Positions 3,260-40,830 of a stretch of DNA of 64,000 nt are shown here, piece after piece. Source of the DNA: a virus; the UHGV virus genome UHGV-1351770. One strand, given 5' to 3'. The first letter of the stretch is position 1. Each line of letters opens with the position of its first letter. Position numbers and translations under genes: made by a program. The notes beneath the pieces are model-generated. The model searched no databases. It saw only the letters and a program-made list of their open reading frames with translations, and had not been told where the DNA came from.

Positions 3260-3373
3260 CAAATTTTTTAACTTTTAGAGGAAAATCATATGGCACTTAA
3301 GGGTAGCAGATAAGTGGTGAGGACCAAAATTTGTGACCCCACTAAAAATCCGGGGGCAATTTTTAAAGACCCC

Positions 3374-4472: not shown

Positions 4473-4889
4473 ATGAGTAAATATGGTTTTGTAAATAACG
4501 GACTTAATCAAAGTATGGGCTCCCAGCAGCCCATTCCGGGTCTGGATAACCCCTACTTACAACAATTGCAACAGCGTTTAGCAGAAGCGCAACAGATGCA
4601 GCAACAACTCCAGCAAAACCCTGGAAGTGTGAGTCCTATGCAAATGATGCAGCAAATGGGCGGGCAGTCGCAAATGCCTCAACAAATGCAGCAACAGGTG
4701 CCGCAGCAGCAAGTTCAGCAACAAACCCAACAACCGCAGGTTTCTGCGGAAGGACAGGCAGTACTAGCCCTTTTCGAAGACTTCGCAAAGACAGAGGATG
4801 GGAAACAGCTTGTATCACTTATGGGTAAGTTTAATAGCTTCTGCCAAAGCCAGGTTGCAAAAGCTCAAAATGGTGGTAATAACTCCTAA
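4473..4889 (+). CDS. Gln-rich low-complexity protein (138 aa)
   Basis: GGGGAGG SD. About 35% Gln (QQLQQRLAEAQQMQQQLQQ...). Second gene of the cassette. Confidence 0.6.
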   Translation: MSKYGFVNNGLNQSMGSQQPIPGLDNPYLQQLQQRLAEAQQMQQQLQQNPGSVSPMQMMQQMGGQSQMPQQMQQQVPQQQVQQQTQQPQVSAEGQAVLALFEDFAKTEDGKQLVSLMGKFNSFCQSQVAKAQNGGNNS

Positions 4890-4898
4890 GGAGGAATT

Positions 4899-5093
4899 AT
4901 GTGTTGCAGAAAATCTGTTTCGTGCTGCCCAATGCCTGTAGCACGTTGTTGCTCTCCAGCAATGTTTACGCAAATACCGGCGTTCAATCCGTTTGCCTTT
5001 AAGCCTACTCTTATCCTGCCCCCTAGAGTAGATTTTCAGTCAAGATTGGCCTCCCGTATGGGTGGTTGCTGTAATAAGAGTATATGGTTCTAA
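4899..5093 (+). CDS. Cys-pair-rich peptide (64 aa; CC...CC...CC...CC)
   Basis: AGGAGG SD. Four CC doublets. Followed by a rho-independent terminator at 5108-5146. Confidence 0.5.
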   Translation: MCCRKSVSCCPMPVARCCSPAMFTQIPAFNPFAFKPTLILPPRVDFQSRLASRMGGCCNKSIWF

Positions 5094-5107
5094 AGAACCA
5101 AACAATA

Positions 5108-5146
5108 AAGCCCCTAGTCGAAAGACTTAGGGGCTTTTCTTTTATC
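5108..5146 (+). terminator. Rho-independent terminator of the plus-strand cassette
   Basis: gcccctagtc...gacttaggggc followed by ttttcttttat. Confidence 0.7.
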
Positions 5147-5149
5147 TTA

Positions 5150-5190
5150 AATACAGAAAAGCCCTGCGCTCTCCAGGGAACGCAGGGCTT
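5150..5190 (-). terminator. Rho-independent terminator for the SPFH gene (minus strand)
   Basis: agccctgcg/cgcagggct 9-bp stem; T-run on the minus strand. Confidence 0.65.
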
Positions 5191-5335
5191 ACTTCAGATG
5201 TTACGTGCGGATATTATTTATTACGCATATCCATAATCATTTGGCCATCATAGCCAGTACCTACCACAGTCTGTGGTACACCACCTTGATATTTCTGAGC
5301 ACGAATCATTTCAACTTCCAATTGCTTCCAACGAA

Positions 5336-6172
5336 TCATTTCAGGAGTAATAGTACGTTGCAGTGCGGCGTTAGCTTCAGCTTCTTTCTTAGCTGCGTAC
5401 AGTTTAGCGTCTGCGTCACGTTCATTAGCAATAGCTTGGTTGTTGCGAGCTTCACGGTCTGCTTCTGCCTGTTTAACTTTTGCTGTGCTTCTTGTTCAAC
5501 ACGAGCAAGTTCAGCTTTCGCAGCATTAACTTGCTCTTCACGAACTTTGGTATTCTGTACCTGTTCCATGATTACTGGAGGCAGGGTAATATCCTGAAGA
5601 AACACCTGCTTAACTGTGTAACCATATGGGCGTGCATACTCTTCAACTTCCTGTTGAATTGCAGTTTGCAATTGAGCCTGAATTTTAGCATCAAACAAAT
5701 CTTGTGCTTTTGGTACAGACTTACCAAACTCACGAATAGTAGACAGTAATTTTTCAGTTACATACTTGTCTAGTGCCTGATCCTGAGTACCTGCGTTAAT
5801 ACGGTTAATCGGTGCCTTAGAACCATCAAACTGCAACATAACAGTCAGGTCAACAGTGGATTTAAACTTATCCTGGCTAGGAACCTGAAGTTTATCTAAT
5901 TTTACAGCAATATCTTTTGTACTAAAAGTATCGAAAGATGCAAACGGGTTTACAAGATGGAAACCAGGCAATACTGGATTAGGATCTACTTTACCCAGGA
6001 ATGTTTGGGTTTTAACCGTACCATCAGAAACAATAGTATATGAATTAAAAGCTAGAATCAAGCCTGCTAAACCAACTACAGCACCAACTACAGCACCAAT
6101 ACCCCAACGTTTAATAGTACGAATTACTTTCTGCTCAGAAGTCAGTTCTTTCATATTTTTAGTATTAAACAT
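5336..6172 (-). pseudogene. SPFH/band-7 (HflK/prohibitin-like) membrane protein, frameshifted near 5478-5481; reading continues in the -1 frame to a TAA at 5214
   Basis: N-terminal TM helix plus SPFH domain. After ...ARVEQEAQQK the current frame turns into non-homologous text. The alternative frame encodes VKQAEADREARNNQAIANERDADAKLYAAKKEAEANAALQ..., which is HflK-like coiled coil. Confidence 0.6.
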
Positions 6173-6205
6173 ATGTTTCCTTTGTTTTAGTTACAGTTAA
6201 TAAAA

Positions 6206-6280
6206 TTGGCCGAGGTGACAGGATTCGAACCTGCATAAAGAAATTTAGAAGACTCCTGCCTCTCCCTTAGACTACACCCC
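6206..6280 (-). tRNA. tRNA-Arg (UCU), 75 nt with CCA
   Basis: Sense strand: CGGGGTG acceptor, D stem gtct/aggc, anticodon stem ggagt/atttc with loop cttctaa (U33, UCU, A37), T arm gcagg/ttcgaat/cctgt, acceptor cacctcg, G discriminator, CCA. Confidence 0.65.
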
Positions 6281-6776
6281 GTTTAGGCATTTTTAAGAAC
6301 TCTTATAAAAGCTCTTAAAGATACCCGACGGTAGGTAGGGTTAGCCCCCTCAGATTAAGCTCTGCAGCCCTTCCGTCAGACAATATCTTCCAGTTTAAGT
6401 CAGGGTGACTTAGTGGTTATGTCCTGCGGTATATTGAGGACTCGGTTAGGCTTGGGGTCATGACTTCCCACCTTTTGCTGCTACTCAACAGGAGTTATCG
6501 CGAATTACCTGTGCTATTGTGCACCATTAGTGACATCTCTCATGTCAGCATTTCCCACTTTGTGGATAGCTTGAAAAACTACTCCGATATGGAGAAAGAA
6601 CTTCACTACCCTAGAATACCTTCTAAAGTTCTTCTTTAGCCTGGACATAGTTAAATCGTAATAAAACTATTCAGCAGACTGGTTGGTTAGTCTGGAACCA
6701 ACTACCGCGTGGTTTAGGCAGTGCGCAACTAACCTCGGAAGCTTTTACGTTAAAAGCATCAGTTATCCAGTTCTTA

Positions 6777-6850
6777 CCGACCGTAGTATTCGAACCTACA
6801 TCTTCCACCAGTTACGGCTTGATAATACCAATTATACTAGGACGGCAGTG
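6777..6850 (-). ncRNA. Degenerate tRNA-like remnant (T-arm-like gtagt/attcgaa/cctac only)
   Basis: Canonical T loop at 6789-6795 with a 4-bp stem. No convincing acceptor or anticodon arm was found nearby. Confidence 0.2.
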
Positions 6851-7069
6851 TTACTACATAAGTGATTTCCACACCCCACTATTTATAAATTAGAGAAGAG
6901 TTTAGGGGAGAGGTTTCAGACGCCTCATTTTACACGTTTTAGCCACTAACCGGGATTGCCGCCCCCTGTGTACTAGTTTTACAACTAACCCACCGACTCT
7001 ATTCAACGAATCTTAGTGCTCGACGCATCTTACATTAAGACAAGTTCAGCGTAATCGGCTCGCTGTTCC

Positions 7070-7112
7070 CTAATTTATGAATATATTATACAGAATTTAA
7101 AGGCATTTAGCA
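7070..7112 (-). promoter_or_regulatory. Conserved early promoter directed into the 6290-7060 non-coding/tRNA-like tract
   Basis: rc of ctaatttatgaatatattatacagaatttaaag. No CDS follows. Confidence 0.55.
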
Positions 7113-19595: not shown

Positions 19596-19879
19596 TCCTA
19601 TAGTGTACTTCGCTAACAGAGGATCAACAAAAAGATCTTGTTTATCAACTTACAAATATATTATACCAATATATACAGTAAAAAGCAACTACAATTTTAA
19701 ATAAGCCTATGATATTGCATTTAAATAAAAATTTGCTTGCTTTTAGCGTGAGATGTGTGATACTAGATAATCATTTTATATCGCGTGCACGAGTGCGTGA
19801 TTATACAATTTTTAATAGAGATTGGCAAATAAAATTTTTTGACTCAGATCATGTTACAGAACTTTATAGTAAAATATTG

Positions 19880-29129: not shown

Positions 29130-29373
29130 ACTAACTGATTTACTTAAAGATGGGGAAGTAAAAACACTATATCGTAGAAGCTGGGATAACGATAATAACG
29201 GCTTAGTGTTACTAACTTTAGATGCTGACTCGGATGTAGCTACTCAGCATACCTGGGTAGCCGGTAACTATCCATATAGCGAGGTTGTTTCATTAACAGT
29301 ATGCGAAGCTATTGCAGACGATTGGGAGGTTGCCAGCATCGAGGATATGCTCGCTGTTGGCCTGGTGGAGTAA
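29122..29373 (+). CDS. Hypothetical protein (probable GTG start at 29122 after an AAGGAAA SD; the ORF-track ATG at 29098 is the alternative)
   Basis: SD spacing favours the GTG. Confidence 0.4.
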   Translation: MSRLTDLLKDGEVKTLYRRSWDNDNNGLVLLTLDADSDVATQHTWVAGNYPYSEVVSLTVCEAIADDWEVASIEDMLAVGLVE

Positions 29374-29476
29374 CTACTTAAAAATTTCAGTTGCTTAATC
29401 CTACAATTCTTGATATAATATTCTCATAGTTTGAAAGAACTATTCTGTTTAATTCTTAATTAAGGAAATATAAAAT

Positions 29477-29887
29477 ATGACTACTCCAACTCAGTGGACT
29501 GATGAACTGTTCGAAAAAATGTCTTCCGAATATGTTGCTCGTATGGAGCAATTCCCAGAGGATGAACGTCCCGGTGTTAGCATGGAAATTGTTAGCGAAA
29601 TTGCCCAGGAAAATGGCGTAACTCCGAACGGTTTTCGTATGAAGCTGACTAAAGCAGGTTTGTATATCAAGAAAGCTGCTGGTTCTACTTCTAAATCTAG
29701 CGCATCTACTGGAGAAAAAGCTTCCGGTGGTTCTCGTACCTCCAAAGCACAAGCCCATGCCGACCTTCGCGCAGCATTCTCTGACGCTGGCTTAGCACCA
29801 GATTTTCTGGATGATGCAATTATCGACAAACTGACCGGTAAAGCGGCTGCTCATCTGGCAGAAGCAATCCGAGCTATCACTAAGTAA
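29477..29887 (+). CDS. Hypothetical protein (136 aa) with a Ser/Gly-rich linker
   Basis: TTGCTT-17-TATAAT promoter plus AAGGAAA SD upstream. Antisense ORFs here are rejected. Confidence 0.55.
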   Translation: MTTPTQWTDELFEKMSSEYVARMEQFPEDERPGVSMEIVSEIAQENGVTPNGFRMKLTKAGLYIKKAAGSTSKSSASTGEKASGGSRTSKAQAHADLRAAFSDAGLAPDFLDDAIIDKLTGKAAAHLAEAIRAITK

Positions 29888-29924
29888 TATTTAGATAAAT
29901 CCACCAACAAAAGGAACTACAGTT

Positions 29925-30221
29925 ATGACCAAAGCTGAAATTATCGCACAATGTGAAAAATTTGGTGAGTTTTATCTTCATTACGAGAAACTTCGTCAGA
30001 AAGGAACCACGTACCTTCAGGGTACGATGGAATTTGATCCAGCCCAAGATAAATATCTGGCTGAGCGTATTAAACGTGAACGTATTCGTAAAGAGAAAGA
30101 TGATGAGATCCTTGTCTTCTCTCGTACTAATGATAGCTTCCGTTTTATTCCTGTCGAGAAAGTCCGTCGTGTGACTAGCCTCCAATCAGAGTTAGATCGT
30201 GCTTCTCCAGTAGGCCGATAA
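29925..30221 (+). CDS. Hypothetical protein (98 aa)
   Basis: Terminator at 30229-30256 downstream. Confidence 0.5.
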   Translation: MTKAEIIAQCEKFGEFYLHYEKLRQKGTTYLQGTMEFDPAQDKYLAERIKRERIRKEKDDEILVFSRTNDSFRFIPVEKVRRVTSLQSELDRASPVGR

Positions 30222-30228
30222 GAAACCA

Positions 30229-30256
30229 ATTAGCCCCTATATGGGGCTTTTTGTGT
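30229..30256 (+). terminator. Rho-independent terminator
   Basis: agcccc-tatat-ggggct followed by ttttgtg. Confidence 0.7.
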
Positions 30257-30271
30257 ATTTGGGATATGTAA

Positions 30272-30580
30272 ATGAGCGAACAGGTAAATCAAAACTATGA
30301 AGGACACGTTGATGACCAGTCCATCATACTTTGGGAGAAGGAGGGAGAACAAGTAAGATTAACAGTATCTGAATTTCGTGGGAATCTATACATGGGTATT
30401 CGTTACTGGCTTCTTGATATTAATGATGAATGGTTTCCAACGAAATCTGGCTTCTCTTTTCCTTACACCCTAGAAACAACATCACAGCTTTTCTATGCGT
30501 TTACACAGATTCTTAGCGAATCTGAGGTTTTACATGAAGTACAGAAACGAGCTGAAGAACTCAAAGCCAAGAATGCCTAG
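30272..30580 (+). CDS. Hypothetical protein (102 aa)
   Basis: Terminator hairpin at 30563-30600 overlaps the stop. Confidence 0.5.
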   Translation: MSEQVNQNYEGHVDDQSIILWEKEGEQVRLTVSEFRGNLYMGIRYWLLDINDEWFPTKSGFSFPYTLETTSQLFYAFTQILSESEVLHEVQKRAEELKAKNA

Positions 30581-30600
30581 TTCTTGGCTTTTTCTTTATA
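30563..30600 (+). terminator. Rho-independent terminator
   Basis: aagccaagaa-tgcctag-ttcttggctt followed by tttctttat. Confidence 0.7.
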
Positions 30601-30667
30601 AATGTATTTGCTTTCAACTCAGTTTTGTTATATAATATTTATATAAATTAATGAGAGATACAAATAA

Positions 30668-31639
30668 ATGACTAATGTAAAAGAATTTATTAAACGCTGT
30701 CAAGAAGCATACTATCAAGGCATGTCTTTAATCTCTGATGAAGAATATGATTGCTTAGTAAAACGCTTCCCACTAGAAGAAGAGATCGGGCCTAAGGGTG
30801 ATATTCCACATCTGTATCGTATGTATTCTTTGCAGAAAGTTTACTATAATCGTGGAGACAAACCACCATTCAATCCATTAGGACAAGTAGAAACAGATAA
30901 ACTGGATGGGTGTGCAATTTCTCTACTGTATATTGATGGTGAATTTGTCCAAGCACTAACTCGTGGTAACGGTATTTTAGGAAATGATGTCACAAGCAAC
31001 GTAAGATTGCTGAACATACCTAAAAAGATTTCTCAAAAAGTACCAACCCAAATCACTGGTGAAGTTCTAATTACAAAAGAAGTAGAAAATAAACGTAACT
31101 TTGCCTCTGGTGCTATTAACCTCAAAGATAGCGATGATTTCGTACAACGTATTGGAGAAGGTGGTTTAATCTTCGTTGCATATGGTATTCAGTGTTCTGC
31201 CGAATCTGTAGGTATTACAGAATCGTATTTAAAAGATATGCTTTGGCTAGAGAATGAGGACTTCTTAACAGTTGTTAATGTGCGTTCCTTCTTTAAATGG
31301 ATTCCTACGGACGGTAAAGTTGTTCGTATTAATGACAACAACAAATTCTTCCGAGAAGGCTGGACTAATAAATTCCCTCGTGGAGCATTCGCTATTAAAG
31401 AGGATGAAGAAGGCGAGATTACAACTCTTACTAAAGTTGAATGGCAGGTAGGGGCTTCTGGTAAAGTAACTCCAGTTGGCTATTTCGAACCGGTAATTAT
31501 TGATGATGCTACAATTGTTAAGGCGACTCTTAATAACGTTGATTATATTAACTCTCTTGATCTAGAGATCGGTTGCCAGATTCGAGTGATTCGTGCTGGT
31601 GGTGTAATCCCGTGCATAGTAGAGCGAGTATACGATTAA
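30668..31639 (+). CDS. ligA: NAD-dependent DNA ligase, N-terminal part (Ia/adenylation/OB domains)
   Basis: KxDG motif KLDGCAISL. OB-domain ending ...RVIRAGGVIPCIVERV aligns to the end of the E. coli LigA OB fold. Confidence 0.8.
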   Translation: MTNVKEFIKRCQEAYYQGMSLISDEEYDCLVKRFPLEEEIGPKGDIPHLYRMYSLQKVYYNRGDKPPFNPLGQVETDKLDGCAISLLYIDGEFVQALTRGNGILGNDVTSNVRLLNIPKKISQKVPTQITGEVLITKEVENKRNFASGAINLKDSDDFVQRIGEGGLIFVAYGIQCSAESVGITESYLKDMLWLENEDFLTVVNVRSFFKWIPTDGKVVRINDNNKFFREGWTNKFPRGAFAIKEDEEGEITTLTKVEWQVGASGKVTPVGYFEPVIIDDATIVKATLNNVDYINSLDLEIGCQIRVIRAGGVIPCIVERVYD

Positions 31640-31689
31640 TACATAACCCTTTGCTACCCATCTACCATATCGGAATTATAAAGTGGTTA

Positions 31690-31718
31690 TTGACATTTTC
31701 GCCGCTTAGGTATATACT
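31690..31718 (+). promoter_or_regulatory. Sigma70 promoter TTGACA-17-TATACT in the spacer between the ligase halves
   Basis: Exact -35 hexamer with a 17-bp spacer. Confidence 0.55.
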
Positions 31719-31782
31719 ATTATCATTCAGTTGAGGGATAGAAAGTTATGGCGAGGGTAAGCAAAGTTAGTTAAAATTGTAG

Positions 31783-31838
31783 TTGCTAAATGCTTAAATA
31801 CTTGCTATAATATTTATATAAATTGATAAGGAAGAAAT
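31783..31838 (+). promoter_or_regulatory. Conserved phage early promoter/leader (TTGCTA-17-TATAAT + ATTTATATAAATTGATAAGG) for the ligase C-terminal part
   Basis: One instance of the motif that recurs about 25 times in the window. Confidence 0.7.
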
Positions 31839-32621
31839 TTGATGAAAATCGAAATTCCAACACAATGTCCCTCTTGTGGTTCTAAGCTAGATCTTGTCAA
31901 CGGACAATTATTCTGTCGGAATAAGTCCAACTGTCCAGCGCAATCAAGTAAGTTAATTGAGAACTTCTGTTCAAAAATGAAGTTAAAGGGCTTTGGCCCA
32001 AAAACTATTGAGAAGCTGGAGCTGACGAAGATTTCAGAACTATTTTATCTAACCGAAGAAGATTTGGTTAGAGCCGTGGGTAGCAAGGTTGCCGCTAAGT
32101 TAATTAGCGAATTAAATACTAAAGTTCGCGGAGACATTGACTTTGGTTCAGTTCTCGGTTCTTTAGGAATCCCTCTAATTGGAGAGGTTGCAGCAAAGAA
32201 ATTATCCCAAAATTGCACTAGCTTCCATGATGTGAAGGCTGACGGCAAAGCTGGAGAAAACTATAGAGCCTGGCTAAATTCCCCACAAGGCAAGGATGTT
32301 ATTGAACTACCGTGGAAATTTTCAACTGGTATTAAGGGCACTAAAGCTAATATTATCACTACGGATGAATTAGTTGCCCAGCCAAATGGAATCGCGGTAT
32401 GTATTACCGGATCTTTGCAAGATTTTGCAAATAGAACGGATGCAACAAACTATTTAGAAAGTCTAGGGTATACGGTTAAGAAATCCGTTACTAAAGACGT
32501 CAAATACCTAATCTGTGAGGATGAATCAAAACGTTCTTCCTCATCTTATAAGAAAGCCGAAACGAATGGGATAGAAATCCTGTCGATTAAAGAACTATTG
32601 GAGAAAAATAATAATGTCTAA
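31839..32621 (+). CDS. ligA: NAD-dependent DNA ligase, C-terminal part (Zn finger, HhH, BRCT)
   Basis: CPSCGSKLDLVNGQLFCRNKSNCPAQ (Cys4 Zn finger), HhH region, BRCT-like ending. Confidence 0.75.
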   Translation: MMKIEIPTQCPSCGSKLDLVNGQLFCRNKSNCPAQSSKLIENFCSKMKLKGFGPKTIEKLELTKISELFYLTEEDLVRAVGSKVAAKLISELNTKVRGDIDFGSVLGSLGIPLIGEVAAKKLSQNCTSFHDVKADGKAGENYRAWLNSPQGKDVIELPWKFSTGIKGTKANIITTDELVAQPNGIAVCITGSLQDFANRTDATNYLESLGYTVKKSVTKDVKYLICEDESKRSSSSYKKAETNGIEILSIKELLEKNNNV

Positions 32622-33381
32622 ACTGAACTGGAACGTAGAAGGTGTAACCGAGTCTCTGAAAGCAAAAGCCACTGCTCTGGGTGTTTCTGTAATCTCTCAA
32701 GAACAAGTAGCTGCTATCGCTGCTGAACTGGCTGCTGAAACTGGCAAAGATGTTACTGCTCGCTCTGTTGGCTCTAAACTGCGTAAAGAAGGTTTTGAAG
32801 TACAAAAAGCTAACGAAGTACAGAAATCTCCGTGGACTCCTGAGCAGGAAGCTGAACTGGTTGATTTCCTGAATGCTCATGCTGGTCAGTATACCTATGC
32901 TGAAATCGCTGCTGCTGTAGCTGGGGGTCAGTTCGGTGCTAAACAGGTACAGGGTAAGATCCTGAGTCTGGAAATGACCGCTTCTGTTAAGCCAACCGAA
33001 AAAGCTGCTGCTGTTCGTTCCTTCACTCCGGATGAAGAAACTGATTTTGTTAATCAGGTTGTTGCTGGTGCTACTATTGAAGCTATCGCTGCTCACTTCG
33101 GTCGTAATATCAAGCAGATCCGTGGTAAAGCTCTGAGCCTGCTTCGTGAAGGTCGTATCGCTGCTATGCCGGTACAGGAAACCTCAAGTGCTAAAACTCG
33201 TGAAGATCTGTTAGAAGGTCTGGATCTGGTTAACATGACTGTTGCTGAGATCGCTGAGAAAACTGGTAAATCTGAGCGCGGTGTTAAATCTATGCTGTCT
33301 CGTCGTGGTCTGGTTGCTAAGGACTATGATGGTGCCGCTAAGCGTGCTAAACTGGATGCAAAAGCTGCGGCTGCTGAATAA
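32614..33381 (+). CDS. Repeat-containing protein (255 aa) with three approximately 30-aa HTH-like repeats
   Basis: Repeats TYAEIAAAVAG..GAKQVQGKILSLE, TIEAIAAHFGRNIKQIRGKALSLL and TVAEIAEKTGKSERGVKSMLSRRGL. Strongly biased E. coli-optimal codons (ctg, cgt, gct). Confidence 0.6.
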   Translation: MSKLNWNVEGVTESLKAKATALGVSVISQEQVAAIAAELAAETGKDVTARSVGSKLRKEGFEVQKANEVQKSPWTPEQEAELVDFLNAHAGQYTYAEIAAAVAGGQFGAKQVQGKILSLEMTASVKPTEKAAAVRSFTPDEETDFVNQVVAGATIEAIAAHFGRNIKQIRGKALSLLREGRIAAMPVQETSSAKTREDLLEGLDLVNMTVAEIAEKTGKSERGVKSMLSRRGLVAKDYDGAAKRAKLDAKAAAAE

Positions 33382-33412
33382 TCTGGTAAATTAAACCTAA
33401 GGGGAGGGGGCT

Positions 33413-34936
33413 ATGCTCCTTCCCCTTTTTGCATTTAGAAGGCACGAAAGCGTGCAAAGGAGAATGACCTTGTTTAACGTGCAAGCTGTAGTGTTGAAGA
33501 TGCTTCTAGCTTCCGAACAGAAGCAAATAGCATTGGAAACATTCTCAAAACTGCATAAAGATCATTTTAATGACGCTTTCTCCTCAATTTACCAAGCCGT
33601 CCAGAATTATTATAAAAAATATAACACAATGCCGTCCATTGACGCACTTATGCTTGAAGCTAATAGGAACGCCCGCCTTTCTCAAGCTCTAGTCGTCTTA
33701 GCTAACACTCAAATTCCAGAAGTGAGCATGGAACAGGCACTTGAAGTCCTAGAAGCCGAATATACACAGGATTTATTCCTGAAGCTTCTAGAAACAGACG
33801 TGCTTCAAGATTTAACAATGCTGGATCAGGGAGAAATTCTCAACCGAGTTGCCTCCCTTCACTTAAAATTAGAAGAGAAAGTAACGAATACTGGAAAAGT
33901 ATTCAACGCAGATAACATGCGTATTTTCCAGAGAGAAGAAGATACCAAACTGAACTTAATCGCTCTTGGTATTTGTAATGAGTTCGACGCTCAAATCGGT
34001 TTAGCTCGCACAGAAACGTTACTGCTTGGTGGTTGGCGTGGTACTGGTAAATCCATTATCTGTTCAAACATACAGGTTCAGCAATATTTGAATGGGGATA
34101 TTGCTCCATACTTCTCAATTGAGATGAAAGAACATGAAGTATTTAGACGTAATCTAGCCATGTTAGCTGGTGTATCAGCACTAGCAATGCGTAATAATAC
34201 TCTAGAAGGTGCAGCTCTGTTGAGATTAGCCAGAACTAGAGCCAGAATGTTTAATGGTGGTGAAGAGCTTTTTGATAACTTCGTTAAACAGTACACAATG
34301 GCTAAGATGAGTGATTTCTACGATATGGAGAGTAAGCTAATAGAAGGATATGAACTACATACTCCTATGATTATCGTTTATGACCCTGAACTGTCCATTA
34401 CAACAGTTGACGTAGAATTAAATAAATTAGTTGCTAGATATGGTGATAAAGTTACAGTAGCTTTACTGGACTATATTAACCAAACCCGACTTCCAGACTC
34501 TAAAACCATTGATATGTATGACTGGAAAGAACAGATGGTTGTTAGCTCGTCTTTCAAATCTATCTGCCAGAAACATAACGTGGCTGGTGTAGCTCCTTAC
34601 CAGATCGATCAAGATGGTAGAACACGTATGTCAAAGGGTATTCTCGATTCCGCAGACATGGCTGCTAATCTTAATGCTGCAAAAGCTGATAATGGTCAAG
34701 GTGCTATTATGTTTGACTTCGTTAAGACTCGTTCTTCTGATAGCGTGAAGTTTATGCCTAAAATGAACTGGGAAACCTTGCGGATGGATAACACTACCAA
34801 CCTAGCAATGGAAGATATATCTCAAATGGAAGCTGAGTTCGTTATCCCTATTGAGAAGGATAAGCCGGCTCAACCTAAACGTGCTAAGAAAGATAAAACT
34901 GAAAATTCAACAGGTGAACAGGCCAGCGATATATGA
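33413..34936 (+). CDS. DnaB-family replicative helicase-like protein
   Basis: Walker A GWRGTGKSI. RecA-like C-terminal domain. GGGGAGGGGG SD. Confidence 0.55.
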   Translation: MLLPLFAFRRHESVQRRMTLFNVQAVVLKMLLASEQKQIALETFSKLHKDHFNDAFSSIYQAVQNYYKKYNTMPSIDALMLEANRNARLSQALVVLANTQIPEVSMEQALEVLEAEYTQDLFLKLLETDVLQDLTMLDQGEILNRVASLHLKLEEKVTNTGKVFNADNMRIFQREEDTKLNLIALGICNEFDAQIGLARTETLLLGGWRGTGKSIICSNIQVQQYLNGDIAPYFSIEMKEHEVFRRNLAMLAGVSALAMRNNTLEGAALLRLARTRARMFNGGEELFDNFVKQYTMAKMSDFYDMESKLIEGYELHTPMIIVYDPELSITTVDVELNKLVARYGDKVTVALLDYINQTRLPDSKTIDMYDWKEQMVVSSSFKSICQKHNVAGVAPYQIDQDGRTRMSKGILDSADMAANLNAAKADNGQGAIMFDFVKTRSSDSVKFMPKMNWETLRMDNTTNLAMEDISQMEAEFVIPIEKDKPAQPKRAKKDKTENSTGEQASDI

Positions 34937-35823
34937 GTAGAATAACAGAACTACTTGATCTGAAAGGCATTGAATATAAAGACACAGGTGGGGACATCCT
35001 CATCTGTTGTCTCAATCCAGATCATGACGATAAACACCCAAGTTTGCGTATTGATCCTGAAACAGGTATTATGCACTGCTTGAGTTGTGGCTTCGGTAAA
35101 GGTATACCGAGCATTTACCATTATTTTAATGAGACTCAGTACCGACAGTCCCCAAGACTATCGCAGGTACGTAAAAAGATTTCAGAGATTAGGAATGGAT
35201 CTACGAATCTTGCAATTCCTGAATCTGCTTACCTTTTCGAAGGTGATTTCCGAGGTATAAGTTCTAAGACCTTGAAGAAATATTTTGCTTTCCAACACCA
35301 AGCAGACTGGGAAGGCAGAATTGTATTCCCAATCACAGATGCTGTTGGACGCAATATCCTATTTTTGGGTCGTTCTATAAACAGTTCTGCCCCTCCTAAA
35401 TACTTAGTAAAACCAAAACAAGTTTCACCACCGATTTTCCCTGTACGATATAATACTCCAGTTCTTATTCTAGTTGAAGGTATCTTTGATATGCTGAACC
35501 TAGAGGATAATGGTATAGACTATGCTTCTTGCTGCTTTGGTACACATCAGTTTACTTCGGATAACATTGCGGATAAGTTCAGCCCTTATATTATTGCTGG
35601 CGTAAAAGTTGTTGTTATCTTACTAGATAATGATGCTTCTGGTAATAAGGCTGCACAAGCACTGGCCAAGTTAATTCGTACAAAAACGCGTTTAACACCT
35701 GTAGTTGCTAACTTTCTTCTGCCCGAAGGTAAAGATCCGGGTGATTTAAACAAAGATGAAATTGATATGTTAGCAAAACGTATTGAAATTTTAGTTGCTG
35801 AATCGCTTAAAGATTTGGTATAA
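34933..35823 (+). CDS. DnaG-like DNA primase (CHC2 zinc finger plus TOPRIM)
   Basis: CCLNPDHDDKHPSLRIDPETGIMHCLSCG. TOPRIM ILVEGIFDMLNL...LLDNDASGNKAA. Confidence 0.8.
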   Translation: MSRITELLDLKGIEYKDTGGDILICCLNPDHDDKHPSLRIDPETGIMHCLSCGFGKGIPSIYHYFNETQYRQSPRLSQVRKKISEIRNGSTNLAIPESAYLFEGDFRGISSKTLKKYFAFQHQADWEGRIVFPITDAVGRNILFLGRSINSSAPPKYLVKPKQVSPPIFPVRYNTPVLILVEGIFDMLNLEDNGIDYASCCFGTHQFTSDNIADKFSPYIIAGVKVVVILLDNDASGNKAAQALAKLIRTKTRLTPVVANFLLPEGKDPGDLNKDEIDMLAKRIEILVAESLKDLV

Positions 35824-35851
35824 TATTTTCATAAATAACTGAGGAGTCACT

Positions 35852-36181
35852 ATGGAATATGTATATATTTATGAGGATGTTCCAGTATACGACAGTACAA
35901 CACATGAAAGAGTGGAATTAGAACGGTTTACGGTACTAGAATCCCTTAATAAACGAAAGGATTTCCATCTATTTGGAGACTCTAAATTACCAGCATCATA
36001 TATTTATTTTATAGTAAAAGATACTGGTCAAGAGGTATATCTAACGTATGATTGGGCTGTTGTAGAAAATACTGAGCAATCTATGAAAGTACTCAGAGCT
36101 TTCTTGCGCATAGATGAAGAACTTAAGGCAGTAGAAAAGCAGCGCAACGAAATGCTTAAACTACTACACACATATAAATAG
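35852..36181 (+). CDS. Hypothetical protein (109 aa)
   Basis: GAGGAG SD. Confidence 0.5.
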   Translation: MEYVYIYEDVPVYDSTTHERVELERFTVLESLNKRKDFHLFGDSKLPASYIYFIVKDTGQEVYLTYDWAVVENTEQSMKVLRAFLRIDEELKAVEKQRNEMLKLLHTYK

Positions 36182-36274
36182 TATTTGCTATTATCCTAAT
36201 ACTTTGATATAATATATTGGTAAGTTAGAGAAGAAACACTGAAGTTATACTTACTTACCAAGAGGAGATTAAAT

Positions 36275-38842
36275 TTGAAAATCGCAGTAGTTGATAAAGC
36301 TCTAAACAACACTCGTTATGATAAACACTTCCAGCTATACGGCGAGGAAGTTGATGTATTCCATATGTGTAACGAGAAGTTATCTGGTCGTTTGCTTAAA
36401 AAGCACATTACTATTGGAACACCAGAAAACCCATTTGATCCGAATGATTATGATTTTGTTATACTAGTAGGTGCTGAACCTTTCCTGTACTTTGCAGGTA
36501 AGAAAGGCATTGGTGACTATACTGGTAAACGTGTAGAGTATAATGGATATGCTAACTGGATTGCGAGTATCAGCCCAGCCCAGTTACACTTTAAGCCTGA
36601 AATGAAACCAGTTTTTGATGCAACAGTAGAGAATATCCACGATATTATCAATGGTCGTGAGAAGATTGCAAAAGCGGGTGATTACCGCCCTATTACTGAC
36701 CCTGATGAGGCGGAAGAATATATCAAGATGGTGTATAACATGGTTATCGGACCTGTCGCATTCGACTCCGAAACCTCAGCACTATACTGTCGAGATGGTT
36801 ATCTGCTTGGTGTTTCTATATCTCACCAAGAGTATCAGGGTGTGTATATCGATTCTGATTGTCTCACAGAGGTTGCAGTATATTATCTCCAGAAAATTCT
36901 GGATAGTGAAAACCACACTATTGTTTTTCACAACTTGAAGTTTGATATGCACTTTTATAAGTACCATCTGGGACTTACTTTTGATAAAGCACATAAAGAA
37001 CGCAGGCTCCATGATACCATGTTGCAGCATTATGTTCTAGATGAGCGTCGTGGTACTCATGGCTTGAAATCTCTAGCAATGAAGTATACCGATATGGGCG
37101 ACTATGACTTTGAACTAGATAAGTTCAAGGAGGATTACTGCAAAGCACATAAAATCAAGAAAGAAGATTTCACCTATGATTTAATTCCGTTTGATATTAT
37201 GTGGCCTTACGCTGCAAAAGATACCGATGCCACCCTACGTTTGCACAACTTCTTCTTACCAAAAATTGAGAAGAATGAAAAACTTTGTAGTCTGTATTAT
37301 GATGTCCTAATGCCTGGTTGCGTGTTCCTGCAACGTGTTGAAGATCGTGGTGTACCAATTTCTATTGATCGCTTGAAAGAAGCACAGTACCAGTTAACTC
37401 ATAATCTGAATAAAGCTCGTGAAAAGCTGTATACTTATCCAGAAGTCGTTCAGCTAGAGAAAGATCAGAACGAAGCATTTAACCCAAACTCTGTTAAACA
37501 ACTCCGTGTTCTTCTGTTTGATTATGTTGGCTTAACTCCAACAGGTAAATTGACGGATACTGGAGCAGACTCTACAGATGCAGAAGCTCTGAACGAATTG
37601 TCTACGCAGCATCCAATTGCTAAGACCCTACTAGAGATTCGTAAGCTGACTAAGCTGATCTCTACTTACGTTGAGAAGATTCTTCTGAGTATTGATGCTG
37701 ATGGTTGCATTCGTACTGGCTTCCACGAACACATGACTACTTCTGGTCGTCTGAGTTCTTCTGGTAAACTGAACCTACAACAGTTACCTCGTGATGAATC
37801 TATTATCAAGGGTTGTGTAGTAGCTCCTCCCGGGTATCGTGTAATCGCATGGGACTTAACAACTGCGGAAGTTTATTATGCTGCTGTTCTATCTGGTGAT
37901 AGAAATATGCAACAAGTATTTATCAACATGAGAAATGAACCTGATAAATACCCTGACTTCCACTCTAACATCGCACATATGGTATTTAAGCTCCAATGCG
38001 AGCCTCGTGATGTTAAAAAGTTATTCCCCGCTCTGCGTCAAGCAGCTAAGGCAATTACCTTCGGTATTTTGTATGGTTCCGGCCCGGCTAAAGTAGCTCA
38101 TTCTGTTAACGAAGCTCTTTTGGAACAGGCTGCTAAGACAGGCGAACCGTTTGTAGAGTGTACGGTTGCAGATGCTAAAGAGTACATTGAAACTTACTTC
38201 GGTCAGTTCCCGCAGCTTAAGCGTTGGATTGATAAGTGCCACGATCAGATCAAGAATCATGGATTTATCTATAGTCACTTTGGTCGTAAACGTCGTCTGC
38301 ATAATATCCACTCCGAAGACCGTGGTGTTCAGGGTGAAGAAATCCGTTCTGGATTTAACGCAATCATTCAGTCTGCTTCTTCTGATAGTCTCCTTTTAGG
38401 GGCTGTAGATGCGGATAATGAGATCATTTCTCTAGGCCTAGAACAAGAGATGAAGATTGTTATGCTGGTTCACGACTCCGTAGTTGCTATTGTTCGTGAG
38501 GATTTGATCGACCAATACAATGAAATCCTGATTCGTAATATTCAGAAAGACCGTGGTATCAGTATTCCTGGCTGTCCGATTGGTATTGATTCAGATTCTG
38601 AAGCTGGAGGTTCTCGTGACTACTCTTGTGGTAAGATGAAGAAACAGCACCCATCAATCGCTTGTATTGATGATGATGAATATACTCGCTATGTCAAAGG
38701 TGTGTTACTTGACGCAGATTTCGAGTATAAGAAACTAGCTGCAATGGATAAAGAGCATCCAGACCACAGCAAATACAAGGATGATAAATTTATCGCTGTA
38801 TGTAAAGATCTGGATAACGTGAAGAGGATTCTCGGTGCTTAA
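36275..38842 (+). CDS. Family A DNA polymerase with 3'-5' exonuclease domain (T5 D9-like, 855 aa, TTG start)
   Basis: Exo I AFDSETSALY. Motif B KAITFGILYGSG. Motif C LVHDSVV. AGGAG SD before the TTG. The 855-aa length matches T5 DNA polymerase. Confidence 0.9.
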   Translation: MKIAVVDKALNNTRYDKHFQLYGEEVDVFHMCNEKLSGRLLKKHITIGTPENPFDPNDYDFVILVGAEPFLYFAGKKGIGDYTGKRVEYNGYANWIASISPAQLHFKPEMKPVFDATVENIHDIINGREKIAKAGDYRPITDPDEAEEYIKMVYNMVIGPVAFDSETSALYCRDGYLLGVSISHQEYQGVYIDSDCLTEVAVYYLQKILDSENHTIVFHNLKFDMHFYKYHLGLTFDKAHKERRLHDTMLQHYVLDERRGTHGLKSLAMKYTDMGDYDFELDKFKEDYCKAHKIKKEDFTYDLIPFDIMWPYAAKDTDATLRLHNFFLPKIEKNEKLCSLYYDVLMPGCVFLQRVEDRGVPISIDRLKEAQYQLTHNLNKAREKLYTYPEVVQLEKDQNEAFNPNSVKQLRVLLFDYVGLTPTGKLTDTGADSTDAEALNELSTQHPIAKTLLEIRKLTKLISTYVEKILLSIDADGCIRTGFHEHMTTSGRLSSSGKLNLQQLPRDESIIKGCVVAPPGYRVIAWDLTTAEVYYAAVLSGDRNMQQVFINMRNEPDKYPDFHSNIAHMVFKLQCEPRDVKKLFPALRQAAKAITFGILYGSGPAKVAHSVNEALLEQAAKTGEPFVECTVADAKEYIETYFGQFPQLKRWIDKCHDQIKNHGFIYSHFGRKRRLHNIHSEDRGVQGEEIRSGFNAIIQSASSDSLLLGAVDADNEIISLGLEQEMKIVMLVHDSVVAIVREDLIDQYNEILIRNIQKDRGISIPGCPIGIDSDSEAGGSRDYSCGKMKKQHPSIACIDDDEYTRYVKGVLLDADFEYKKLAAMDKEHPDHSKYKDDKFIAVCKDLDNVKRILGA

Positions 38843-39332: not shown

Positions 39333-40681
39333 AGGTTGTTATATCTAATAAAGCCTATTTCAAGCCCGATGATGAACTTTGGGATTATTGTAGTAAACAA
39401 ACTACTTATCACATTGAGACAATGACTAGTAAATACCCTATTATGTATAAAAATAGTGGTGTTGTTGCCAAAGAGATTAAGTGGATTCCTATCACGCGTC
39501 TAGATTTATTAGATGCTAAAGGAGTAAAATACGAATTAGTAGATAAACGTACATTAGCTCCGGTAGATATACCAAAACCTAAGTTCAAATTGCGTGAAGA
39601 AGACCAGCTCCCAATATATGAAGAGTGTGATGATACCTGTATTATTAATGGTAAGCCTGGATTTGGTAAAACTATACTAGCACTTGCACTTGCGTATAAA
39701 TTTGGCCAGAAAACTTTGGTAATTTGTACCAACACATCTATTCGTGAAATGTGGGCGGCAGAAGTTCGTAAATGGTTTGGGTTTGAACCAGGTATCATAG
39801 GTTCTGGGAAATACAATATTGATCCACCAATTGTGGTCAGTAATATTCAAACAGTGAATAAACATGCGAATAATCTTTCTAAAGTATTCGGTACTGTTAT
39901 AGTTGATGAAGTTCACCATTGTGTGGCTACAACTTTCACTAACTTCCTAGAAATATCATGTGCTCGCTATAAGATTGGACTATCCGGTACATTAAAAAGA
40001 AAAGATGGTCTACAAGTTATGTTCAAAGATTTCTTTGGATATAAGATCTTTAGCCCACCGGTTAATAATACTGTTGCACCTACAATCCATAGGTATTCCG
40101 TACCTGTTGAGTTATCAGGGAACCAAAACGTACCATGGGCATTACGTGCTAACGATGTATACAATCATCCTGAATATCGAGAGACTATTATAAATCTAGC
40201 ACATTTATACGTGAATATGGGGCATAAAGTACTCATTGTAAGTGACAGAACAGAGTTAATCCAAACAGTACTAGAAGCTCTTGCGCAGCGTGGTGTTACA
40301 ACGTATGAAATTATAGGGGCAACCCACTTAGATGATCGATTAAAAATTCAGGAAGATATAGCAAAAGGTGGGCCTTGCGTACTTGCAGCCGCTCAAAGTA
40401 TCTTCTCTGAAGGTATTTCCCTTAACGAGCTGTCTTGTTTAATAATGGGAAGTCTTATTAATAATGAATCTCTCATTGAACAGCTTGCAGGACGTGTTCA
40501 ACGTATTGTCGAGGGTAAACTCGATCCTATTGTTGTAGATCTAATTATGAAAGGTGGTACTGGGCTAAGACAGGCTTCTGGACGTATGGCAGTATATCGT
40601 AACAACGGGTGGAAAACTATTACCATGACTCCTGAGAAAGCAGTTCAATTAGCTAAAATTGCATTTGTCAACAGCGCATAA
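39329..40681 (+). CDS. SF2 helicase (T5 D10-like branch-migration helicase)
   Basis: Walker A GKPGFGKT; DExH VDEVHH; helicase C-terminal domain. Confidence 0.8.
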   Translation: MKVVISNKAYFKPDDELWDYCSKQTTYHIETMTSKYPIMYKNSGVVAKEIKWIPITRLDLLDAKGVKYELVDKRTLAPVDIPKPKFKLREEDQLPIYEECDDTCIINGKPGFGKTILALALAYKFGQKTLVICTNTSIREMWAAEVRKWFGFEPGIIGSGKYNIDPPIVVSNIQTVNKHANNLSKVFGTVIVDEVHHCVATTFTNFLEISCARYKIGLSGTLKRKDGLQVMFKDFFGYKIFSPPVNNTVAPTIHRYSVPVELSGNQNVPWALRANDVYNHPEYRETIINLAHLYVNMGHKVLIVSDRTELIQTVLEALAQRGVTTYEIIGATHLDDRLKIQEDIAKGGPCVLAAAQSIFSEGISLNELSCLIMGSLINNESLIEQLAGRVQRIVEGKLDPIVVDLIMKGGTGLRQASGRMAVYRNNGWKTITMTPEKAVQLAKIAFVNSA

Positions 40682-40689
40682 ATAATGTA

Positions 40690-40830
40690 TAATATATACA
40701 TAAATTTGAGAGAGAAAGTTTCGGATTGATAAGAAAGTCCGAAGCAGAAAAATAAAAATTTTAGTTGCTAAATTCTCTCGAAATCTAGTATAATATATAC
40801 ATAAATTCGAGGAGAAAACAAAAATTAAAT
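40690..40830 (+). promoter_or_regulatory. Two tandem copies of the conserved early promoter/leader separated by a hairpin
   Basis: tgtataatatatacataaatttgagagag at about 40690 and tagtataatatatacataaattcgaggag at about 40785, each with TTGCTA-like -35. Confidence 0.6.

What the first reader, a model, noticed from the sequence alone, without database searches (positions are those of the whole stretch)
5214..6172. SPFH/HflK-like membrane protein gene disrupted by a 1-nt frameshift in an A4 run
The annotated frame (ending TGA at 5336) turns into LNRQKQTVKLATTKLLLMNV..., which is not SPFH-like. The -1 frame from about 5490 onward reads VKQAEADREARNNQAIANERDADAKLYAAKKEAEANAALQRTITPEMIRWKQLEVEMIRAQKYQGGVPQTVVGTGYDGQMIMDMRNK and runs to a TAA at 5214. 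That is a textbook HflK/HflC C-terminal coiled coil. Restoring one A in the minus-strand AAAA run at 5478-5481 (plus cttttg) yields a continuous approximately 320-aa protein (...EQEAQQKVKQAEAD...). The cause is either a homopolymer sequencing error, a recent pseudogenisation, or slippage-dependent expression.
Basis: seen in the sequence. Interest (0 to 1): 0.55.

Follow-up and report, generated by a model that had tools for sequence, protein, structure and literature searches.

The report
Frameshifted SPFH gene in T5-like phage
A conserved membrane-scaffold (SPFH) gene of a T5-like phage is broken by the loss of one A from a five-A run, a change seen in no other phage; it is either a very recent knockout or a base-calling error, not a programmed frameshift, so the finding is ordinary.

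Summary
On the minus strand, the ORF at 6172-5336 (278 aa) is the ortholog of phage T5 gene T5.080, an SPFH/Band-7 membrane protein. It leaves the conserved frame at an A4 run (5478-5481). Restoring one A gives a 319-aa protein that is identical to the commonest ortholog protein, apart from a second private change: an in-frame 12-nt tandem duplication (GAVV) in the membrane helix.

All 25 complete orthologs I extracted are intact at 948 nt. The A4 allele was found in no annotated phage record probed, and in no IMG/VR, metagenome or GTDB contig.

All substitutions private to this gene are synonymous on both sides of the shift, so the lesion is very young or not real. Programmed frameshifting is not supported: the arrangement is not conserved, the site is only a bare A_AAG tetramer, and there is no downstream structure. 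Trace −1 slippage (about 0.1%) would nonetheless restore the exact ancestral protein.

I cannot separate a real mutation from a consensus error:
- For a real mutation: the assembly is otherwise clean, and the same gene carries a second private lesion.
- For an error: all three private 1-nt indels in the window are deletions in A/T runs, and two share the context TTTAAC-T5.

Reads or Sanger sequencing would settle it. Interest is low.

The parts
5336..6172 (-). Actual ORF, 278 aa. Residues 1-232 are authentic T5.080-type SPFH protein: membrane helix, SPFH domain, and the first ~34 residues of the long helix. Residues 233-278 are 46 out-of-frame residues, ending at TGA 5338-5336.
   Evidence: (Band_7 E=4e-20)
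5478..5481 (-). A4 run (T4 on the plus strand) where every ortholog has one more base (CAA AAA G, CAG AAG G or CAG AAA G). This is the frameshift site. In the zero frame it reads CA A_AA.G.
   Evidence: allele absent from public collections
5214..5477 (-). Stranded 3' part of the gene in the -1 frame: 87 codons plus TAA (VKQAEADREA...DMRNK). It encodes the rest of the long helix, a second helix and the C-terminal strands. It is 100% identical in protein to the orthologs despite 12-29 nucleotide differences.
6076..6099 (-). In-frame 12-nt tandem duplication (TTGGTGCTGTAG x2, followed by a partial third copy TTGGT). It adds GAVV to the N-terminal membrane helix and is private to this genome.
   Evidence: all full-coverage hits among 337 records are split and span 84 nt instead of 96
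6178..6182 (-). Shine-Dalgarno-like AAGGA, 5 nt upstream of the ATG at 6172-6170.
   Evidence: Phage Lindwurm annotates a ribosome-binding site 5 nt before the start codon of its ortholog.
6207..6281 (-). tRNA-Arg(TCT) immediately upstream on the same strand, as in T5 (T5t25 precedes T5.080).
5159..5190 (-). Intrinsic terminator hairpin (13-bp stem plus T tract), 24 nt after the native TAA. A second hairpin lies at about 5110-5134. This corresponds to T5's 'efficient bidirectional terminator'.
5336..5339 (-). ATGA overlap: the premature TGA of the shifted frame overlaps the in-frame Met codon (PEMIRW) of the native frame. This creates a 41-codon ORF (5339..5214) that termination-reinitiation could in principle translate. 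I take the overlap to be incidental.
   Evidence: sequence only; translation not tested

Best explanation
This is a genuine and very recent loss-of-function mutation. Replication slippage removed one A from the A5 run (codons Gln231-Lys232, CAA AAA) of the phage's T5.080-type SPFH gene.

The intact protein has an N-terminal membrane helix, an SPFH alpha/beta domain, a ~76-residue helix, a second helix and short C-terminal strands. That is the protomer plan of cage-forming SPFH proteins (erlin, prohibitin, HflK/C, stomatin, QmcA).

The shift cuts the long helix about 43% of the way along and replaces the remaining 87 residues with 46 unrelated ones. The product keeps its membrane anchor and SPFH domain but should no longer build the helical wall and cap of an oligomeric cage. 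That last step is inferred from family knowledge and was not tested.

The phage tolerates the loss because the gene is an accessory early gene at the edge of the tRNA region. This too is inferred.

The site happens to read A_AA.G in the zero frame. A spontaneous -1 slip of tRNA-Lys there would recreate exactly the ancestral sequence (...AQQK VKQAEAD...), but only at background frequency, about 0.1%.
For: - The allele is private. All 31 annotated phage records reached by an 81-nt probe carry one more base. The allele has 0 hits in IMG/VR, metagenome and GTDB contigs, against 24 IMG/VR hits for the intact pattern. All 25 complete orthologs (24 distinct sequences) are intact at 948 nt.
- The lesion is young. 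The repaired protein equals the commonest ortholog protein except for GAVV. All 4 private substitutions are synonymous, 2 on each side of the shift.
- The assembly is otherwise sound. Of 86 ORFs of at least 80 aa in a relative, only this gene changes frame. Of 109 flank-matched A/T runs of at least 5 nt, 106 keep their length. Private substitutions number 401 synonymous, 100 non-synonymous and 60 non-coding, similar to two relatives. With 60 private non-coding substitutions, two private non-coding 1-nt deletions are a natural ratio.
- Small indels avoid coding DNA. Only 2 of the 6 events private in the four-genome comparison are coding, although 76-82% of A/T runs are coding (P=0.01-0.03). All 6 lie in the gene-sparse first 20 kb (P=0.002-0.004).
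- The same gene carries a second private change of a type sequencers do not produce: the 12-nt tandem duplication.
- Natural lesions occur elsewhere in this family: an in-frame TAA two codons upstream of the equivalent site in a T4-like contig, an 11-aa deletion just after the site, and a deletion of the membrane segment.
- Structure.
Against: - Every strictly private 1-nt indel in the 64 kb is a -1 deletion in an A/T run of 5-6 nt (3277, 5482, 19731). That is the classic signature of homopolymer under-calling.
- Two of them share the plus-strand context TTTAAC-T5. The relative has exactly two copies of that 11-mer in the syntenic 65 kb, and both are shortened in the window. A context-free process would give such a shared flank only ~0.5% of the time.
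- The gene is intact in every other genome examined, so loss is presumably costly in nature.
- The known viable T5 deletions (30661-38625 and 29191-32442) stop short of T5.080 at 39791-40738. Dispensability is therefore not documented.
- With only three strictly private events, the placement test is not significant (P=0.08-0.14).
Confidence: 0.5

Rival explanations
1. This is a consensus (base-calling or assembly) error. The phage really has A5 and an intact 319-aa gene, and the sequencing chemistry under-called a 5-nt homopolymer in a particular sequence context.
For: - The site is a homopolymer -1, and the downstream frame is perfectly preserved at the protein level.
- The allele is unique among hundreds of relatives.
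- All three strictly private 1-nt indels in the window are deletions in A/T runs of 5-6 nt.
- Both occurrences of the 11-mer TTTAACTTTTT are shortened. The chance expectation for such a shared context is ~0.5%. Context-specific homopolymer deletion is typical of nanopore and flow-based chemistries (my own knowledge).
Against: - The error rate would have to be very low: 106 of 109 matched runs are correct, and five other AAC-T5 sites are retained.
- No other gene is broken.
- Private substitutions look normal.
- The putative errors avoid coding sequence and the essential 20-64 kb part of the window.
- The error would have to fall by chance in the very gene that carries the window's private 12-nt duplication. 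By gene length that is roughly a 2-6% chance.
- Two private non-coding 1-nt deletions are what 60 private non-coding substitutions predict for natural divergence.
Confidence: 0.44
2. This is programmed or otherwise functional slippage. The gene is meant to produce two products: a 278-aa zero-frame protein and a 319-aa full-length protein made by -1 ribosomal frameshifting on A_AA.G, or by transcriptional slippage in the A run.
For: - The zero frame does present A_AA.G, the most shift-prone tetramer in E. coli (PMC4066793).
- A -1 slip there restores exactly the ancestral protein.
Against: - The two-frame arrangement is not conserved. None of the 25 complete orthologs, the 31 probed annotated records or the three large DNA collections has it.
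- The site is a tetramer only. The P-site codon CAA cannot re-pair with GCA.
- The 87 nt downstream fold less stably than their shuffles (z=+1.66). That sequence is the same one intact orthologs use for coding.
- I read no Shine-Dalgarno-like element upstream.
- Without a stimulator, tetramers shift at about 0.15% against 0.11% background.
- Four A are far too few for efficient RNA-polymerase slippage (my own knowledge).
Confidence: 0.02
3. This is a real and selected truncation. Losing the C-terminal coiled coil is advantageous in this phage's host or laboratory history, for example as escape from a host system that senses or is blocked by the assembled phage SPFH cage, or because the SPFH-only fragment has its own activity.
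For: - There are two private lesions in one gene.
- An independent nonsense codon lies two codons from the equivalent position in an unrelated T4-like phage contig, with its downstream frame intact.
- An 11-aa in-frame deletion lies directly after the site in a metagenomic T5-like contig.
Against: - The sample is n=2-3, was noticed post hoc, and came from inspecting only proteins of unusual length.
- There is no literature on the function of this phage protein or on it acting as a defence trigger, and no PADLOC match.
- The truncated allele is not seen in any other isolate.
Confidence: 0.04

Closest known systems
Phage T5 gene T5.080 (YP_006908.1, named 'lipoprotein' in RefSeq; PHROG phrog_200)
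   Same: It is the ortholog by sequence and by position. The gene order is the same: promoter, stable-RNA region, tRNA-Arg(TCT), this gene, bidirectional terminator. Nucleotide identity to Tequintavirus relatives is 89-98%. The phrog_200 match has E=3e-85.
   Different: T5.080 and all other orthologs examined are intact at 948 nt / 315 aa. The window's copy has a -1 frameshift at codon 232 and a 4-codon duplication in the membrane helix.
Cage-forming SPFH proteins: E. coli QmcA, HflK/HflC; eukaryotic prohibitins, erlins, stomatin, flotillins
   Same: - Pfam Band_7 domain.
- By sequence, the best solved relatives are QmcA (E=1.8e-6) and prohibitin-2.
- The AlphaFold model of the intact ortholog (pLDDT 81) has a membrane helix, an SPFH domain, a long helix and a C-terminal segment. 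It aligns over 260-310 columns with erlin, prohibitin, HflK/C, stomatin and QmcA protomers (Foldseek E=1e-14 to 1e-9).
   Different: - Sequence identity is only 14-20%.
- No NCBIfam family matched, so the HflK and HflC equivalog models I recall being in that library did not match either.
- No NfeD or FtsH partner gene was seen next to it.
- Oligomerisation and any protease link are untested.
- In the window the coiled-coil half is out of frame.
Programmed -1 ribosomal frameshift sites of bacteria and phages (dnaX, IS3/IS911, phage tail-chaperone G/GT)
   Same: It contains the A_AA.G slippery tetramer in the zero frame. A -1 shift yields a longer, meaningful product.
   Different: There is no heptamer, no stimulatory structure and no Shine-Dalgarno-like element. 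Above all, the arrangement is not conserved among relatives.
'Leaky' frameshift mutations and translational correction of indels (reviewed in PMC5009743)
   Same: A 1-nt deletion in a Lys-codon A run leaves a slippery site at which rare -1 slippage rebuilds the wild-type protein.
   Different: The expected level here is background, about 0.1%. There is no sign that the phage depends on it.

Membership tests
SPFH / Band 7 superfamily (Pfam PF01145) | Band_7 domain scoring above Pfam's gathering threshold | tested here: met
   73 bits against a 23.6-bit cut-off, E=4e-20, residues 56-229 of the actual 278-aa ORF.
SPFH / Band 7 superfamily (Pfam PF01145) | Protomer architecture of the cage formers: N-terminal membrane anchor, SPFH alpha/beta domain, long coiled-coil helix, C-terminal cap segment | tested here: met
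   Met for the intact ortholog P0002. The model gives H12-38, SPFH 41-192, H195-270, H273-290 and C-terminal strands. Full-length Foldseek matches to erlin, prohibitin, HflK/C, stomatin and QmcA have E=1e-14 to 1e-9. In the window itself, everything after residue 232 is encoded only in the -1 frame.
SPFH / Band 7 superfamily (Pfam PF01145) | Assembly into a large homo- or hetero-oligomeric ring or cage on a membrane | not testable with these tools
   Only a monomer was modelled. Testing this needs biochemistry or cryo-EM.
HflK / HflC proper (FtsH-modulating pair) | Match to the HflK or HflC equivalog models, or closest sequence relationship to them | tested here: not met
   The NCBIfam scan returned no family at E<=0.01. 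A phmmer search against PDB sequences lists QmcA and prohibitins but not HflK or HflC at E<=0.01.
HflK / HflC proper (FtsH-modulating pair) | Paired K and C genes | tested here: not met
   This is a single SPFH gene flanked by a tRNA-Arg and a terminator. No second SPFH ORF lies in 4500-7000, and none appears in the T5 annotation of the region.
Programmed -1 ribosomal frameshift | Slippery motif in the zero frame | tested here: inconclusive
   The A_AA.G tetramer is present (CA A_AA.G). There is no X_XXZ_ZZN heptamer, because CAA cannot re-pair with GCA.
Programmed -1 ribosomal frameshift | Stimulatory element: downstream hairpin or pseudoknot, or an upstream Shine-Dalgarno-like sequence | tested here: not met
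   The 87 nt downstream have an MFE of -13.4 kcal/mol against a shuffle mean of -17.9 (z=+1.66). Upstream I read only AAGAAG, not an SD-like sequence.
Programmed -1 ribosomal frameshift | Conservation of the two-frame arrangement among relatives | tested here: not met
   0 of 25 complete orthologs have it. All 31 probed records carry the extra base. There are 0 hits in IMG/VR, metagenome and GTDB contigs.
Bacterial lipoprotein (the name RefSeq/PHROG gives the orthologs) | Signal peptide ending in a lipobox with an invariant Cys | tested here: not met
   By my reading, the repaired 319-aa sequence and the commonest ortholog sequence contain no cysteine at all (output). The N-terminal hydrophobic segment is modelled as a membrane helix.
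Pseudogene (decaying gene) | Relaxed constraint after the lesion: non-synonymous changes or further stops downstream | tested here: not met
   The downstream 87 codons are 100% identical in protein to the orthologs. Both private substitutions there are synonymous. If the lesion is real, it is too recent to show decay.

The most novel reading that the evidence does not exclude
The boundary between the SPFH domain and the coiled coil of this phage protein family may be a recurrent target of selected truncation. Three lesions would then be parallel events: the window's frameshift, an independent in-frame nonsense codon two codons away in a T4-like phage (L032), and an 11-aa deletion just after the site in a metagenomic T5-like contig. 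Such truncations would disable cage assembly while keeping a membrane-anchored SPFH domain, for instance to escape a host system that detects the phage cage. The A_AA.G site would supply a trickle of full-length protein by -1 slippage.
Probability: 0.04. Interest if true: 0.5.

Novelty: already known. Interest (0 to 1): 0.12.

Why it matters
It matters very little beyond annotation. If the deletion is an error, the record should be corrected and the gene annotated as an intact 319-aa SPFH protein. If it is real, this isolate is a natural knockout of a gene conserved in all T5-like phages examined whose function is unknown, and I found no knockout of that gene in the papers searched. That would make it a free reagent for asking what the phage SPFH protein does. 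The observation that rare -1 slippage on A_AAG would rebuild the wild-type protein is a neat textbook illustration of a leaky frameshift, not a new mechanism.

Tried and rejected
- **Source genome.** I looked for the source genome or an independent assembly through the exact 278-aa product and found none on record.
- **A4 allele.** I scanned IMG/VR, metagenome and GTDB contigs for it and found none.
- **12-nt duplication as a lineage marker.** I scanned IMG/VR and metagenomes and got 19 hits. All are unrelated tandem repeats with no SPFH homology by blastn or tblastn. A probe of the annotated phage collection found only split matches lacking the duplication.
- **Dispensability of T5.080.** The published viable T5 deletions (30661-38625 and 29191-32442; PMC11464382) do not reach T5.080 at 39791-40738. 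Dispensability stays an inference.
- **Literature.** Searches for a function of phage SPFH proteins, or for a role as defence triggers, found nothing relevant. PADLOC gave no match.
- **Other coding indels.** I suspected the +1 at window 449 and the +1 at 61933 were further private coding frameshifts, which would have favoured sequencing error. Both are alleles shared with other phages.
- **Recombination junction.** I considered that the shift sits at a recombination junction. By my reading of the alignment, the change in closest relative occurs about 120 nt upstream of the site, so I rejected this.
- **Programmed frameshift.** Rejected on conservation, motif and structure.

Full report
**1. 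What is in the sequence**

The window is a T5-like phage (Tequintavirus, Demerecviridae). A 1.2-kb probe around the finding matches 447 annotated phage records, the best at 96.4%, so the genome itself is not in that collection.

On the minus strand the layout is as follows:
- a tRNA-Arg(TCT) at 6281-6207;
- an AAGGA ribosome-binding site;
- an ATG at 6172 opening a 278-codon ORF that stops at TGA 5338-5336.

A different frame continues from 5477 to TAA 5216-5214 and reads VKQAEADREARNNQAIANERD...DMRNK. That frame is open only from 5495. A strong intrinsic terminator follows at 5190-5159. The actual ORF carries a Band_7/SPFH domain (PF01145, E=4e-20).

**2. Comparison with orthologs**

The gene is the ortholog of T5.080 (YP_006908.1), which sits in T5 in the same order: tRNA-Arg, gene, bidirectional terminator.

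Four close relatives annotate an intact 948-nt CDS. The alignment shows two length differences in the window:
- a single missing base in CAGCA-AAAG, the minus-strand A4 at 5481-5478;
- an in-frame 12-nt tandem duplication, TTGGTGCTGTAG x2 at 6099-6076.

From the loci I gathered I extracted 25 complete orthologs (24 distinct sequences). All are 948 nt, none has an internal stop, and none has the duplication. The site reads CAA AAA (13), CAG AAG (9) or CAG AAA (2), always Gln-Lys.

Inserting one A gives a 319-aa protein. It is identical to the protein encoded by 11 of the 24 distinct orthologs, except for the extra GAVV.

**3. Is the allele found anywhere else?**

No.
- An 81-nt probe hits 31 annotated records, and every match spans one base more than the query.
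- A degenerate pattern for the A4 allele has 0 matches in IMG/VR, in 241 million metagenome records and in GTDB genomes. The intact pattern has 24 IMG/VR matches.
- No protein among 5.8 billion shares the out-of-frame tail, and the exact product is on record nowhere.
- The duplication is equally private. In 337 records the 96-nt probe aligns only as two pieces spanning 84 nt. Exact-pattern hits in IMG/VR and metagenomes are unrelated repeats.

**4. Age of the lesion**

The window's gene has four substitutions not seen in any of the 24 orthologs. All four are synonymous, two upstream and two downstream of the shift. The 87 downstream codons differ from individual orthologs at 12-29 nucleotides and at no amino acid.

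The stranded frame was therefore under purifying selection until essentially the present. The deletion is either extremely recent or not in the DNA at all.

**5. What the shift removes**

An AlphaFold model of the intact T5-type ortholog was built from a 41-sequence family alignment (mean pLDDT 81). It shows:
- a membrane helix (12-38);
- an SPFH alpha/beta domain (41-192);
- one 76-residue helix (195-270);
- a second helix (273-290);
- short C-terminal strands.

Foldseek aligns it over 260-310 columns with protomers of erlin1/2, prohibitin, HflK/C, stomatin, QmcA and flotillin (E=1e-14 to 1e-8). By sequence the nearest solved chains are QmcA (E=1.8e-6) and prohibitin-2. No NCBIfam family matched. 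The protein is therefore a generic cage-type SPFH protein, not specifically HflK/C.

It has no cysteine by my reading of the sequence, so the database name 'lipoprotein' is unfounded.

The shift falls at residue 232 (228 in 315-aa numbering), inside the long helix. SPFH proteins assemble into domed rings (abstract of PMC12624060). In the solved cages the long helices form the wall and the C termini form the cap; that detail is from my own knowledge of those structures. I infer that the truncated product cannot form a closed cage. This was not tested.

**6. Programmed frameshift?**

The zero frame reads CA A_AA.G. A -1 slip of tRNA-Lys from AAG to AAA followed by GTT would give ...AQQK-VKQAEAD..., exactly the ancestral protein.

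A_AA.G is the most shift-prone tetramer in E. coli, but only with a strong downstream pseudoknot (up to 5.6%). Without a stimulator, tetramers give about 0.15% against 0.11% background (PMC4066793).

Here the 87 nt downstream are less structured than their shuffles (z=+1.66). There is no heptamer and no upstream SD-like element. No relative has the two-frame arrangement. This is at most a leaky frameshift, not a programmed one.

**7. Real mutation or consensus error?**

*For a sound assembly:*
- Of 86 ORFs of at least 80 aa in Kenya-K37's syntenic 68 kb, only this gene (and its antisense shadow ORF) changes frame in the window.
- Of 109 flank-matched A/T runs of at least 5 nt, 106 have the same length.
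- Private substitutions (401 synonymous, 100 non-synonymous, 60 non-coding) resemble those of two relatives.

*From a four-genome comparison:*
- The window has six private indels, all +/-1 in A/T runs.
- Only 2 of the 6 are coding although 76-82% of such runs are coding (P=0.01-0.03). All six lie in the gene-sparse first 20 kb (P=0.002-0.004).
- Two of the six are alleles shared with other phages: 8604 and 449. The 61933 difference belongs to Kenya-K37 rather than to the window.

*What remains strictly private:*
- Three -1 deletions remain: 3277 (0 of 111 records share it), 5482, and 19731 (0 of 376).
- For three events the placement test is not significant (P=0.08-0.14).

*For error:*
- All three are deletions in A/T runs of 5-6 nt.
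- Sites 3277 and 5482 share the plus-strand context TTTAAC-T5. Kenya-K37 has exactly two copies of that 11-mer in the region, and both are T4 in the window.
- Three runs drawn at random from the 209 would include a pair sharing at least 6 nt of flank only 0.5% of the time.

*Against error:*
- The frameshift lies in the same 948-nt gene as the private 12-nt duplication, which is not a sequencing-type change. By gene length that is roughly a 2-6% coincidence.
- Two private non-coding 1-nt deletions beside 60 private non-coding substitutions is a natural ratio.

These arguments roughly cancel. I put a real mutation at about 0.5 and a consensus error at about 0.44.

**8. Other lesions in the family**

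Family members are 297-315 aa almost without exception. The proteins of unusual length include:
- a T4-like Logan contig with an in-frame TAA replacing the first Gln of the QQ pair, two codons before the equivalent of the window's site, with the downstream frame intact;
- a metagenomic T5-like contig with an in-frame 11-aa deletion directly after QQKVKQA;
- a protein lacking the membrane segment.

This shows that real lesions of this gene occur. The apparent clustering near the SPFH/coiled-coil boundary is post hoc and rests on two or three cases.

**9. Verdict**

The finding is accurate and well described, but ordinary. It is a lineage-private single-base deletion in a homopolymer of a conserved accessory gene, with no evidence of recoding.

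Whether the deletion is in the phage or only in the consensus cannot be settled from sequence alone. A read pile-up or Sanger sequencing across 5478-5481, ideally also across 3277, decides it.

Noticed in passing
window 6076-6099 (minus strand): A private in-frame 12-nt tandem duplication (TTGGTGCTGTAG x2, then a partial TTGGT) adds GAVV to the membrane helix of the same SPFH gene. It is absent from 25 complete orthologs and from 337 annotated records.
   Followed up: yes
window 3273-3277 and 19727-19731: There are two further strictly private -1 deletions in A/T runs, both non-coding. Site 3277 (T5 to T4) shares the context TTTAAC-T5 with the SPFH site, and these are the only two copies of that 11-mer in the relative. 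This may be a context-specific base-calling artefact or a slippage hotspot.
   Followed up: partly
L032 1169-1171 (Logan ERR13713442_542, T4-like phage contig): The homologous SPFH gene carries an in-frame TAA in place of the first Gln of 'QQ', two codons before the position of the window's frameshift. Its downstream frame is intact to the native stop at 1436-1438. This is an independent truncation at nearly the same boundary.
   Followed up: partly
L033 3001-3915 (ENA ERZ28643530 scaffold_3084, T5-like): This ortholog (P0001, 304 aa) has an in-frame 11-aa deletion (EADREARNNQA) immediately after QQKVKQA, just downstream of the window's frameshift site. The deletion lies between the short repeats KQA and NQA.
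   Followed up: no
window 5165-5171 (minus strand), inside the terminator hairpin 5159-5190: The sequence GAGCGCA matches the T5 nick-site consensus (Pu-pGCGC). It lies about 45 nt after the gene's stop, the same offset at which T5 annotates a 'major DNA single-chain interruption' after T5.080.
   Followed up: no
window 5336-5339 (minus strand): The premature TGA overlaps the native-frame Met codon as ATGA, the classic translational-coupling overlap. This creates a 41-codon ORF encoding the authentic C-terminal 41 residues. It is probably incidental.
   Followed up: no
orthologs of window 5214-6172 in RefSeq records (e.g. NC_005859 T5.080): RefSeq and PHROG name this protein 'lipoprotein', yet the sequence contains no cysteine and so has no lipobox. 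The name appears to be a propagated mis-annotation. Other records call it an SPFH/Band 7 protein.
   Followed up: yes
window 6282-7085 (minus strand): The stretch between the promoter-like site (7113-7085) and the tRNA-Arg corresponds in position to T5's 719-nt 'RNAX, stable RNA with unknown functions'. In the window its two ends (about 6326-6385 and 7011-7042) are strongly diverged from Kenya-K37, with many small indels.
   Followed up: no
window 61933 (T6) and 449 (T6): These are homopolymer-length polymorphisms that change the 3' ends of small or tail genes and are shared among natural isolates. The T6 allele at 61933, at the overlap between the tail-protein gene and the tail-assembly-chaperone gene, matches 5 records at 100%. 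The T6 allele at 449 is shared with Kenya-K36, which annotates the CDS there as at least 294 nt, against 273 nt in Kenya-K37.
   Followed up: partly
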